A program made the position numbers. Below, piece by piece: positions 60,001-63,000 of a stretch of 64,000 nucleotides of DNA. How positions within the stretch are numbered: the first letter of the stretch is position 1; each line of letters begins with the position of its first letter. This DNA is from a virus, in IMG/VR virus record IMGVR_UViG_3300025530_000275, positions 126,101 to 190,100 of that record, one strand, 5' to 3'.

Positions 60001-63000
60001 CTACTAAGACGTATACTATTCAATTCAGTGTAGCTCTAAACAATAATGCTGATCTTAGCGAATTAACTTATAACGGTAATCCAGTACCTAATTTCGATAA
60101 AAATACCTTAAATTATAATGTAGAACTTCCTTATGGTACTGTAGAGGCACCTGTAGTAGACGCAGTTCCTGAAGATTCCAATGCTTCAGTGGATATAACT
60201 CAAGCAGATAATCCTAACGGTATTGCTACCATAGTTGTAACTGCTGAAAATGGTATTGCTACTAAGACGTATACTATTCAATTCAGTGTGGCTCTAAACA
60301 ATAATGCTGATCTTAGCGAATTAACTTATAACGGTAATCCAGTACCTAATTTCGATAAAAATACCTTAAATTATAATGTAGAACTTCCTTATGGAACTAC
60401 AGAAGCACCTATAGTGGAAGCTGAAGCAGAAGATTCCAATGCTACTGTACAGATTATACAGGCAGATGATCCAAATGGAACTGCAACTATTATTGTAACT
60501 GCTGAAAATGGTATTGCTACTAAGACGTATACTATTCAATTCAGTGTGGCTGATCTTAATATAGAACTAGCTGATACCTATACATTACCTAGTACTGGAC
60601 GCTCTATATCATTCTCTCCCGATGATCAATATATAGCTGTAGGACATAGTGGTTCTCCTTGTTTTACTTTACTAAAAAGAAATGGAGATAATGTAGAATT
60701 AGCTAGTACTTATACATTACCTAATACTGGTTATGGTGTATCATTCTCTCCTGATGGTCAATATATAGCTGTAGGACATAATGGTTTTCCTTATTTTACT
60801 CTATTAAAAAGAAATGGAGATAATGTAGAATTAGCTAGTAATTATACATTACCTGGTATTAGCTGGGGCGTATCATTCTCTCCCGATGGTCAATATATAG
60901 CTGTAGGATATAGTAGTTCTCCTCATTTTACTTTATTAAAAAGAAATGGAGATAATGTAGAACTAGCTAGTAATGTTATAATACCTGGTAATGGCCGTAG
61001 TGTATCATTCTCTCCCGATGGTCAATATATAGCTGTAGGATATGGTGCGCCTCCTTATTATTTTATTCTATTAAAAAGAAATGGAGATAATGTAGAAATA
61101 GCTAGTAATTATACATTACCTGGTATTGGATACTCTGTATCATTTTCTCCCGATGGTCAATATATAGCAGTGGGACATAATGGTTCTCCTCGTTTTACTC
61201 TATTAAAAAGAAATGGAGATAATGTAGAACTAGCTAGTAATTATACATTACCTGATGATGGCAATAGTGTTTCATTCTATCCCGATGGTCAATATATAGC
61301 TATAGGACATAATAATTCTCCTTATTTTACTTTACTAAAAAGAAATGGAGATAATGTAGAATTAGCTAGTACTTATACATTACCTGGTACTGGCTTTGGC
61401 GTATCATTCTCTCCCGATGGTCAATATATAGCTGTAGGACATGGTGTTTCTCCTTGTTTTACTCTATTAAAAGCAGGATGAACTTTTTCAAAAATCCCTC
61501 CAATCTTTATTGAATATAGAGGTAAAAGATATAAGATGTGTACAATTAATTGATATGGGGATTTAAAATAAAAGATTTATATTTACATGAAATAATAAAA
61601 AACATGCTTCAGCAAAAATACTAAAAAATAAATTCAATTATACTGATGATGGACTAAATCTTATAAGATCATATGTTTTATCATATATTGTATATGATGT
61701 GTCATTTCCCTCTTTGGTCAATATATTAGCGAATTAACTTATAACGGTAATCCGGTACCTAATTTCGATAAAAATACCTTAAATTATAATGTAGAACTTC
61801 CTTATGGTACTACAGAGGCACCTGTAGTTGTAGCTGACGCGAAGATTCCAATGCTACTGTACAGATTGTACAGGCAGACGACCTTAACGGAACTGCAACT
61901 ATTATTGTAACTGCTGAAAATGGTATTGCTACTAAGACGTATACTATTCAATTCAGTGTAGCTTTAAACAATAATTCATATTTAAGTAAGATTCTTATAA
62001 ACGAAGATGAATTAGATGTAACCGAATATGAAGTGATATTACCCTATGGTACTGTAGAAGCACCTGTAGTAGACGCAGTTCCTGAAGATTTCAATGCTTC
62101 AGTGGATATTACTCAAGCAGATGATCCAAATGGAACTGCAACTATTACAGTCACTGCTGAAAATGGTGTTGATTCTACAGTGTATACAATTACGTTCAAA
62201 GTATCTGAAGAATAATATAAATAATAGCAGACCGGTAATTCGGTCTGCTATTTTTATTTTTTTTTTTAATAATTTTTTTATCTTTAATTAAATTGGAATA
62301 TCAACCAAATATAAAAGAGATTAATAAAGGAGGTTGATTGTATGTCAAAAAAAGTTAAATTCATGCTTCTTTTGGCTGCTGCAATTCTTACTGGGGAATA
62401 TGAAGATTAATTTAGAAAAATAAAATGGAAGGTGGTCAATTCCACCTTCCATTTTATTTTTTATTCTAATAGCCCATCCCACTGATTAAATTTTTCAATA
62501 GTCCACAAATCTATTTCAAGATCTTCAATAAGTTCTCTTATTATTACATCTAAATGCTTTATATATTTAGAGTCTCGTACTTCAGTATAATATACCGCAC
62601 TGTCCATATCATTATAATCTGAAACTTTAATAGTATGCTCATAAGTTTCATCCGGATATGTTTTTAAAGTATATTGTACCATCCATTTGCTTCCATTATA
62701 TACTACTATTTTTTCAGAAGTTTTTACATCTGGTTCTGTATTACCATAATTAACATAGCCATGGTACATCACATTATTCAAAATATCTTTTTCGTTATTA
62801 TATTCTTGTATATCAATGATATCAGGTTCATATCTAGATACATGATCTTTTAGTACCTTTATAATACTCATAATAAGATTTGACGTAGTATAACTATTCC
62901 CAATATCATTCAGATATTTGAATATTAGATCTTTAAGAATGGACAGAAAATTCTTTATGGCATTTGGATGTGCTGGTGTAATTACCTTAAAGCTATAAAG

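What the first reader, a model, noticed from the sequence alone, without database searches (positions are those of the whole stretch)
60561..61478. Near-symmetric 7-blade propeller with hypervariable codons confined to two loops per blade
Seen: the 132-bp units are almost identical even at synonymous sites, yet two short windows vary non-synonymously. After LP: ST/NT/GI/GN/GI/DD/GT then GRS/GYG/SWG/GRS/GYS/GNS/GFG. After VG: HSGS/HNGF/YSSS/YGAP/HNGS/HNNS/HGVS, plus the residue after P (C,Y,H,Y,R,Y,C). Many variable codons are NNT variants of AAT (agt, aat, ggt, gat, act, att). Inference: an antibody-like binding face on a cadherin stalk under strong diversification. The pattern is compatible with adenine-directed (DGR-like) mutagenesis or with blade shuffling plus positive selection. 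AT bias alone could explain third-position T, and no reverse transcriptase is in this window.
Basis: partly seen in the sequence, partly recalled or inferred. Interest (0 to 1): 0.72.

Follow-up and report, generated by a model that had tools for sequence, protein, structure and literature searches.

The report
Hypervariable-loop propeller on phage adhesin
A giant bacterial virus carries six ring-shaped protein domains built from 42 almost identical repeats whose surface loops on one face all differ; they are probably fast-changing host-binding heads kept diverse by recombination and selection, not by a reverse transcriptase.

Summary
Window 60558-61478 encodes seven 44-residue WD40 (WRAP-like) blades. 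They form the C-terminal propeller of a 1023-aa protein with a cadherin-like stalk. Variation sits in codon columns 12-16 and 31, 32, 36 of each blade. By strand order these are the D-A and B-C loops, so they share one face.

The 207-kb phage genome holds 35 more blades of this unit in three other genes: 42 blades, 41 distinct loop signatures. Loop non-synonymous diversity is 3.1 times framework synonymous diversity (bootstrap 2.5-4.1). Five blades in four genes share an identical 93-nt framework yet differ at 9-13 of 24 loop bases.

The DGR reading is rejected: no reverse transcriptase (E up to 10, genome rated complete), no adenine bias, and one 14-blade gene is unchanged in another phage.

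Best reading: blades exchange by recombination (concerted evolution) and the binding face is under diversifying selection, as in Podospora HNWD repeats. The setting, probable phage tail or adhesin proteins, is new.

The window's propeller is a captured cassette: 1170 nt inserted cleanly into a cadherin repeat, leaving a broken old 3' end.

Binding and virion location are untested. This scan found the same blade family before on other DNA (e1-5682147, e1-5682157).

The parts
58410..61481 (+). Gene A: 1023-aa chimeric adhesin-like protein. The start is more likely ATG 58428, behind RBS AAAGGAG at 58413-58419, giving 1017 aa.
   Evidence: ORF list, translation, upstream sequence. The ESM Atlas holds the protein from residue 7 on.
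58410..60557 (+). N-terminal region plus about 6 cadherin-like beta-sandwich repeats (the stalk). The last 3.7 repeats are a young 258-bp tandem array at 59607-60551.
   Evidence: PF12733 E 2.4e-28, 5 stretches. TRF period 258, 86% matches. The three youngest copies differ by 9-13 synonymous and 4-11 non-synonymous codons, with no loop-confined pattern.
60558..61478 (+). Seven WD40/WRAP-like blades forming one 7-bladed propeller. Units start at 60558, 60690, 60822, 60954, 61089, 61221 and 61353.
   Evidence: AF2 model pLDDT 95.9, pTM 0.92, 28 strands. WD40 54.6 bits and PD40 53 bits, both above cut-off. 2ymu E 2.1e-78. Top Foldseek hits are 7bie, 2ymu and 7big.
60591..61400 (+). Hypervariable loop 1 (columns 12-16, the D-A loop and the start of strand A), one per blade: 60591-60605, 60723-60737, 60855-60869, 60987-61001, 61122-61136, 61254-61268, 61386-61400.
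   Evidence: Per-column entropy and pN. DSSP strand map.
60648..61457 (+). Hypervariable loop 2 (columns 31, 32 and 36 within the B-C loop), one per blade: 60648-60662, 60780-60794, 60912-60926, 61044-61061 (with one extra codon), 61179-61193, 61311-61325, 61443-61457.
60558..61727 (+). Inserted cassette of 1170 nt: seven blades, the stop, a C-type tail and about 175 nt of the intergenic DNA that follows gene C. It lies exactly between GATCTT (60552-60557) and AGCGAA (61728-61733) of a cadherin-like repeat.
   Evidence: Intact repeats read GATCTT|AGCGAA. Window 61479-61727 matches genome 202490-202239 at 96%. The junctions were read directly.
61479..61481 (+). TGA stop of gene A, where genes B and C have a Gly codon. 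A has GCA GGA TGA ACT, C has GCA GGA GGA ACT.
   Evidence: TGA is an ordinary stop in this genome (33 of 140 long frames).
61482..61553 (+). Untranslated remnant of the C-type C-terminal tail (TFSKIPPIFIEYRGKRYKMCTIN*).
61728..62215 (+). Broken old 3' end of the stalk gene: about two cadherin-like repeats, a frameshift between 61829 and 61850, and the old stop at 62213-62215.
   Evidence: 80% identity to A's own repeats, genome 185894-186405. Frames and coordinates.

Best explanation
Gene A encodes an extended cadherin-like stalk that ends in a 7-bladed WD40 (WRAP-type) propeller. Its 'top' face, made of the D-A and B-C loops, carries 7 x 8 hypervariable residues on a nearly invariant scaffold. 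This propeller is one of six in the phage: 42 blades in genes A, B, C and D.

The blades behave as one evolving pool. The framework, conserved at the nucleotide level, provides homology for gene conversion and unequal crossing-over. These act between blades, between genes and even between phages, which homogenises the framework and moves loop variants around. Diversifying selection keeps amino-acid changes in the loop codons.

The result is a combinatorial set of binding surfaces. Most probably these are host-surface recognition heads on tail or virion fibres.

Shown here: the fold, the position of the variable codons in alternate loops, the excess of non-synonymous change, the lack of tree structure, recombination signals, two cassette-transfer events and the absence of an RT. 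Inferred: that the face binds a ligand, that the ligand is on the host surface, that the proteins are in the virion, and that a host arms race is the selective agent.
For: Fold and topology. AF2 gives pLDDT 95.9 and 28 strands. Loops 8-13/14-16 and 31-36 alternate with the conserved SPDGQ and GD turns, so they share one face. The closest structures are the Nostoc WRAP propellers 2ymu and 7bie.

The family. There are 42 blades in 4 genes.

Rates. Loops: pN 0.447, dN 0.68. Framework: pS 0.143, dS 0.159, omega 0.35. The ratio pN(loops)/pS(framework) is 3.1, bootstrap 2.5-4.1.

Scaffold versus loops. A7, B13, C3, C6 and D7 share an identical 93-nt framework but differ at 9-13 of 24 loop bases. There are 41 signatures among 42 blades.

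Blade exchange. Framework distance is 0.08 whether blades share a propeller, a blade index or neither. All four gametes occur in 29 of 78 site pairs, and Rm is at least 5 in 123 nt. C1 and C2 have the same protein sequence; their frameworks differ at about 2 of 93 bases. A6 shares loop 2 and framework with C1/C2 but has another loop 1. Blades of P0011, P0013 and P0009 each form their own clade.

Cassette moves. A 1170-nt block is inserted into A's stalk. Gene B is about 100% identical over 2.7 kb in a phage whose large genes are 31-35% identical in protein.

Strain variation. C against its positional counterpart: 74 of 112 loop codons changed, linker 123/126 identical. L006 against L004: upstream flank 99.8% identical, loop bases 40/96 different.

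Context. A tail-fibre gene, a YadA-head repeat gene and LamG fusions lie nearby. A 69%-identical propeller fused to a beta-helix sits in a siphophage tail module.
Against: No binding, virion or host data exist. Genes B and C are bare double propellers with no recognisable anchor domain.

The selection test is a counting method on recombining paralogues, not a likelihood site test.

Synonymous sites could be depressed by homogenisation, which would inflate the ratio.

The blade number is always 7 per propeller, so the repeat-number instability typical of HNWD arrays is not seen.

The genome is a metagenome assembly, and 132-bp repeats could be mis-joined. Against that, gene B is identical in two independent assemblies.

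The face assignment rests on strand order, not on coordinates.
Confidence: 0.7

Rival explanations
1. Diversity-generating retroelement: an RT copies a template repeat with adenine-specific errors into the blades.
For: The variable region lies at the C-terminus of a probable receptor-binding protein. Many variable codons look like NNT variants of AAT.
Against: No PF00078 match at E up to 10 in a genome rated 100% complete, while the control genomes do match. Highly variable sites have consensus A 7/41, C 5/22, G 6/23, T 4/46. Columns 14 and 15 vary at codon position 3. No invariant extra copy stands apart from the 42 blades. Gene B is unchanged in another phage. Loop differences come together with framework synonymous differences. 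The fold is a propeller, not a C-type lectin or Ig fold.
Confidence: 0.02
2. Recent amplification followed by neutral drift in unconstrained loops: no positive selection and no continuing exchange.
For: Loops tolerate change in most propellers. Recently amplified propellers are common (PMC9218822).
Against: Loop pN exceeds framework pS threefold. Blades with zero framework differences differ at 40-50% of loop bases. There is no same-index or same-propeller signal. The four-gamete test fails widely. Each lineage has its own homogenised blade consensus.
Confidence: 0.08
3. The same evolutionary mechanism, but the propellers act inside the cell. They would bind host or rival-phage proteins, for example as decoys for WD40-type STAND immune sensors, rather than the host surface.
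For: The nearest cellular relatives are cyanobacterial STAND/NACHT WD40 sensors and WRAP. B and C have no fibre-like domain.
Against: The blades are fused to cadherin-like, LamG and beta-helix domains. They lie beside tail-fibre genes and inside a siphophage tail module between the tape-measure gene and Dit/Tal.
Confidence: 0.1
4. An unknown RT-independent targeted hypermutation acts on the loop codons.
For: There is an extreme rate contrast over a few bases.
Against: No candidate enzyme or cis signal was found. Gene B is static between phages. The variation is mosaic and travels with framework markers.
Confidence: 0.05

Closest known systems
Podospora anserina HNWD family (het-d, het-e, het-r WD40 arrays; Paoletti, Saupe and Clave 2007, PMC1805685; Chevanne 2010, PMC2873952)
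   Same: WD40 repeats are nearly identical at the DNA level within and between genes. The repeats are exchanged within and between loci (concerted evolution). A few codons per repeat lie on the interaction face, flank conserved residues, and are under positive diversifying selection. The pool is large: about 70 repeats there, 42 here.
   Different: Those are fungal intracellular NACHT receptors, with variable repeat number and RIP as a possible mutator. Here the setting is a phage. There is no NTPase, the number is fixed at seven blades per propeller, about eight variable codons per blade rather than four, and the fusions are to cadherin-like, LamG and beta-helix domains.
WRAP, WD40-family recently amplified propellers of Nostoc punctiforme (PDB 2ymu, 7bie; PMC6805158, PMC9218822)
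   Same: This is the closest sequence and structure relative (E 2.1e-78, about 31% identity). It shares the SFSPDGQ.IA and RNG motifs and two 7-bladed propellers per 14 blades. WRAP's variable W/R/N residue aligns with column 15 here.
   Different: WRAP is the C-terminus of a STAND ATPase. It is reported with only 10 point mutations and no synonymous change, that is, freshly amplified and not yet diversified. The phage blades have framework dS of 0.16 and saturated loops.
Phage DGR targets (Bordetella phage BPP-1 Mtd; tentaclins, PMC10743442)
   Same: A C-terminal hypervariable binding surface on a phage receptor-binding protein with a fixed scaffold.
   Different: The mechanism differs. DGRs need an RT and a template repeat and change only adenine positions. 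None of these is present here.
Mosaic phage tail fibres exchanged by recombination
   Same: Host-recognition modules move between unrelated phages (gene B here).
   Different: Here the unit of exchange can be a 132-bp blade or a part of one, and the genome keeps an internal library of 42.

Membership tests
WD40 / WRAP-type beta-propeller | Seven blades of four antiparallel strands | tested here: met
   AF2 model pLDDT 95.9, pTM 0.92, 28 strands. Foldseek TM 0.78-0.87 to WD40 propellers.
WD40 / WRAP-type beta-propeller | Sequence match above the curated cut-off | tested here: met
   WD40 54.6 bits (cut-off 27) and PD40 53 bits (cut-off 20.9). 2ymu E 2.1e-78.
WD40 / WRAP-type beta-propeller | WRAP context: C-terminus of a STAND NTPase | tested here: not met
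   No NTPase domain in A-D. The partners are cadherin-like and LamG domains.
High-internal-conservation repeat arrays of the HNWD type | Repeats nearly identical at nucleotide level within and between genes | tested here: met
   Framework nucleotide distance 0.08 in all comparisons. Five blades in four genes have identical frameworks.
High-internal-conservation repeat arrays of the HNWD type | Repeats group by genome or protein, not by position (concerted evolution) | tested here: met
   P0011, P0013 and P0009 blades each form one clade. G000 blades show no index signal. Only the edge blades 1, 8, 9 and 14 keep positional identity.
High-internal-conservation repeat arrays of the HNWD type | Positive selection at a few codons on the interaction face | tested here: met
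   In loop codons dN is 0.68 and dS 0.30. pN(loops)/pS(framework) is 3.1, CI 2.5-4.1. This is a counting method only; the face is assigned from strand topology.
High-internal-conservation repeat arrays of the HNWD type | Repeat-number polymorphism | tested here: not met
   Every propeller here and in the relatives has 7 blades.
High-internal-conservation repeat arrays of the HNWD type | NACHT/NLR architecture | tested here: not met
   Pfam scans.
Diversity-generating retroelement | Reverse transcriptase | tested here: not met
   PF00078: none at E up to 10; the genome is rated 100% complete.
Diversity-generating retroelement | Template/variable repeat pair differing only at template adenines | tested here: not met
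   No distinct invariant copy and no adenine bias.
Phage receptor-binding or tail-fibre protein | Encoded in a tail or fibre module | tested here: inconclusive
   B, C and D lie beside a tail-fibre gene and a YadA-head gene. The homologue P0004 lies in a TMP-Dit-Tal module. Gene A itself sits 12 kb away among genes of unknown function.
Phage receptor-binding or tail-fibre protein | Present in the virion and binds the host surface | not testable with these tools
   The phage is uncultured and the host unknown.
Cadherin-like beta-sandwich (PF12733) | Pfam match above cut-off | tested here: met
   98.9 bits against a cut-off of 24.2, 5 stretches.

The most novel reading that the evidence does not exclude
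The 42-blade pool would be a working, RT-independent diversity generator for phage host recognition. Frequent gene conversion among blades, as with pilin or vlsE cassettes, would create new binding faces within phage populations on ecological time scales. Whole propeller cassettes would act as portable heads that can be grafted onto unrelated stalks (as in gene A) and passed between unrelated phages (as with gene B).
Probability: 0.25. Interest if true: 0.85.

Novelty: new variant of a known kind. Interest (0 to 1): 0.62.

Why it matters
Phages are known to vary their receptor-binding proteins by DGRs, by point mutation and by swapping fibre modules. A repeat-library route is known from fungal and bacterial immune receptors: a frozen scaffold that doubles as recombination homology, with selected loop codons. 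I found no paper describing it for phages; one large catalogue only notes that viruses have repetitive propellers (PMC9218822).

If these heads bind host surfaces, they would explain rapid host-range shifts in uncultured jumbo phages. They would also offer a natural, very stable 7-fold scaffold with 56 tolerant positions for binder engineering.

This window adds two dated events. One is a cassette caught just after it was grafted into a stalk gene. The other is an identical 14-blade gene shared by phages that are otherwise 31-35% identical in protein.

Tried and rejected
DGR: RT searches at E 0.001 and at E 10, a template search and an adenine-bias table were all negative.

Recoded TGA (code 25, Gly) to read through A's stop: rejected, because TGA ends 33 of 140 long frames.

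Orthologue of A's stalk in relatives: none in IMG/VR or in three related records. A's own strain-level variation therefore could not be measured.

AACA-N6-TA 'late promoter' as evidence for a structural gene: the motif lies at 58389-58400, but with 127 sites genome-wide it is not enriched, so it was not used.

PHROGs and Pfam on A's N-terminus and its close neighbours: no function found. The Atlas only says cadherin-like.

PMC7159879 was checked as a possible source for hypervariable WD40 arrays in bacteria. It concerns other systems and was not used.

No complex prediction was run, because no partner is known.

Full report
1. The observation

Tandem Repeats Finder reports a 132-bp period, 6.9 copies, at 60557-61472, and a 258-bp period at 59607-60551. 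Both lie in one ORF, 58410-61481 (+), 1023 aa.

In frame, the 132-bp array is seven 44-residue units. The fourth unit has one extra codon. Pfam calls the upstream part 'Cadherin-like beta sandwich' (PF12733, E 2.4e-28, 5 stretches). It calls the repeats WD40 and PD40, both above their cut-offs.

2. The array is part of a much larger family

The window is bases 126101-190100 of a 206,953-bp virus record rated 100% complete.

- blastn and tblastn with one unit find 35 further copies at 80-91% nucleotide identity.
- Gene B (707 aa) and gene C (709 aa) each hold two propellers. Gene D (1685 aa) holds one propeller plus LamG domains. Gene A is the window's gene.
- A fifth protein, E (1646 aa), holds older, diverged propellers.
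- In total there are 42 young blades in six propellers.

Pooled, the variable codon columns are 12-16, 31, 32 and 36, with 1.1-3.1 bits of entropy and up to 13 residues at column 31. Column 7 (T/N) and columns 28-30 and 33 vary less. The remaining columns are nearly invariant.

3. Rates

By Nei-Gojobori counting:

- Eight loop codons: pN 0.447, dN 0.68, dS 0.30.
- 36 framework codons: pN 0.054, pS 0.143, dS 0.159, omega 0.35.

Loop pN divided by framework pS is 3.1, with a bootstrap interval over blades of 2.5-4.1.

Blades A7, B13, C3, C6 and D7 lie in four different genes. They share an identical 93-nt framework, silent sites included, yet differ at 9-13 of their 24 loop bases. The 42 blades carry 41 distinct loop signatures.

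As a contrast, the three youngest cadherin-like repeats differ by 9-13 synonymous and 4-11 non-synonymous codons, with no confinement to loops.

4. Structure

AlphaFold2, run on an alignment of nine propellers (A1), gives pLDDT 95.9 and pTM 0.92, with 28 strands: seven four-stranded blades. Within a unit the order is:

- columns 1-7, strand D;
- columns 8-13, loop;
- columns 14-19, strand A;
- columns 20-24, the conserved SPDGQ turn;
- columns 25-30, strand B;
- columns 31-36, loop;
- columns 37-43, strand C;
- columns 44-45, the conserved GD turn.

In an antiparallel meander, alternate loops lie at the same end of the blade. The two variable loops (D-A and B-C) therefore share one face, the conventional WD40 'top' face. 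The conserved turns lie on the other face.

The nearest solved structures are the Nostoc punctiforme WRAP propeller 2ymu and designer proteins derived from it (7bie, 7big, 7bif), at about 31% identity. In the 2ymu alignment, WRAP's variable W/R/N residue aligns with column 15 here.

5. Not a DGR

- No reverse transcriptase is found at E up to 0.001 or up to 10, while the control genomes do match.
- Highly variable nucleotide sites have consensus A at 7 of 41, C at 5 of 22, G at 6 of 23 and T at 4 of 46. There is no adenine bias.
- No invariant template copy stands apart from the 42 blades.
- Gene B differs at 1 of 616 blade codons from its copy in another phage. This argues against continuous mutagenesis.

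6. Exchange among blades

Framework distance is 0.08 whether two blades share a propeller, share a blade index in different propellers, or neither. This fits neither whole-propeller duplication nor separate in-gene amplification.

All four gametes occur in 29 of 78 pairs of informative framework sites, and Rm is at least 5 within 123 nt.

C1 and C2 have the same protein sequence, loops included; their frameworks differ at about 2 of 93 bases. A6 shares loop 2 and framework with C1/C2 but has a different loop 1.

In a tree of framework residues, the blades of three more distant proteins (P0011, P0013, P0009) each form their own clade. Blades of this phage and of its relatives are intermixed. 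Only the edge blades (1, 8, 9, 14) keep positional identity.

This is the pattern that Paoletti et al. used to define concerted evolution in the Podospora HNWD family. There, four codons per WD40 repeat at the interaction surface are under positive selection (PMC1805685).

7. Variation between phages

Four IMG/VR contigs carry the same blades. Their 28 additional blades all have new loop signatures.

In contig IMGVR_UViG_3300031466_000001, the counterpart of gene C has 74 of 112 loop codons changed. It also has 83 of 504 framework codons changed, 40 of them silent, while the inter-propeller linker is 123/126 identical. So the blades were replaced or reshuffled, not point-mutated.

The adjacent 2.7 kb is about 100% identical: the end of C, the spacer and all of B. 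Identity decays through 99% and 95% to background on the right, and the left boundary lies inside C's blade array.

That contig is identical to record G001 over 8538 bases. G001's RNA polymerase beta subunit and another large gene are only 35% and 31-33% identical in protein to this phage's. Gene B was therefore passed recently between very different jumbo phages.

A third contig is 99.8% identical in the 500 bases before the gene. Inside the blades it differs at 40 of 96 loop bases and 23 of 432 framework bases.

8. Gene A is a fresh chimera

Intact cadherin-like repeats read ...GATCTT|AGCGAA.... In gene A, the block 60558-61727 (1170 nt) sits exactly between those hexamers.

The block holds the seven blades. 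After the blades comes a TGA, where gene C has GGA, a single-base difference. Then comes a C-type tail that is no longer translated, and then about 175 nt that are 96% identical, together with the tail, to the DNA following gene C.

After the insert the old reading frame resumes, with about two cadherin-like repeats. These are now broken by a frameshift between 61829 and 61850, and the old stop lies at 62213-62215.

The propeller was thus grafted as a cassette onto a pre-existing stalk gene. TGA is an ordinary stop in this genome (33 of 140 long frames).

9. Function

The evidence is contextual.

- The fusion partners are cadherin-like and LamG domains and, in a 69%-identical homologue, a pectate-lyase-type beta-helix. 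These are typical of adhesins and tailspikes.
- B, C and D lie beside a tail-fibre gene and a YadA-head repeat gene.
- The beta-helix fusion lies between the tape-measure gene and the Dit/Tal genes of a siphophage.
- BFVD holds many phage and giant-virus WD40-LamG proteins.

I conclude that host-surface recognition is the most likely role. Nothing here tests binding or virion location. An intracellular role is a minor rival, given the kinship with STAND-sensor WD40 domains.

The phage itself is a distant relative of AR9/PBS1-type jumbo phages. Its RNA polymerase beta subunit is 30-34% identical to theirs, its GC content is 34%, and its host is unknown.

10. Novelty

The kind is known: highly conserved WD40 repeats with selected hypervariable positions, reshuffled by concerted evolution. 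It is described in fungal NLRs (PMC1805685, PMC2873952, PMC4986451). Recently amplified propellers are catalogued in all kingdoms, viruses included (PMC9218822).

I found no paper describing it in phage tail or adhesin proteins. This scan has met the same blade family before in other genomes (e1-5682147, e1-5682157), and analogous RCC1, Kelch and SBBP cases.

What this window adds is the cassette-capture event, the six-propeller count in one genome, and the transfer between distantly related phages.

Caveats: this is a metagenome assembly of repeats, the selection test is a counting method, and the face assignment rests on topology.

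Noticed in passing
genome 199766-202565 (L001:4766-7565); L004:7900-10700: A 2.7-kb block (the end of gene C, the spacer and all of gene B) is about 100% identical between this phage and a phage whose large core genes are only 31-35% identical in protein. This points to recent horizontal transfer. The left breakpoint lies inside a blade array.
   Followed up: yes
genome 195446-197584 (L001:446-2584, +): A full-length polyphosphate kinase 1 (all four PPK domains, E down to 2.4e-67) is encoded by the phage, between gene A and the B/C cluster. 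It is a likely auxiliary metabolic gene.
   Followed up: no
genome 204669-206594 (L001:9669-11594, -): A 641-aa protein with YadA-head repeats (PF05658, E 2.4e-22) lies directly upstream of gene C. It is another adhesin-type gene in the cluster.
   Followed up: no
genome 2027-6967 (L002:2027-6967, -): Protein E (1646 aa) carries two older, diverged propellers of the same lineage (SFSPDG.YI motifs) plus a LamG domain. It shows what the young blades look like after homogenisation stops.
   Followed up: partly
L024:6001-9096 (GCA_029972165.1, JARKUL010001861.1): A 1031-aa protein has six blades 69% identical to these, its own blade consensus (SVSLAS...KRTGD), variable residues in the same loop columns, and a NosD/beta-helix domain. 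It lies in a siphophage tail module (tape measure, Dit, Tal).
   Followed up: partly
window 60549-60557: The last cadherin-like repeat before the insert lacks 15 nt (ctaaacaataatgct) found in the other copies. The missing piece lies between two GCT triplets, which looks like a slippage deletion next to the insertion site.
   Followed up: no
window 58389-58428: AACATTCAATTA (AACA-N6-TA) lies 22 nt before ATG 58410. A strong RBS (AAAGGAG) precedes the second ATG at 58428, which is the likelier start. The motif is not enriched genome-wide (127 sites).
   Followed up: partly
window 48807-52991 (+): A 1394-aa phage RNA polymerase beta subunit (phrog_14872, E 3e-167). Its closest named relatives are Listeria phage LPJP1, Bacillus PBS1 and Staphylococcus jumbo phages, at 30-34% identity.
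   Followed up: partly
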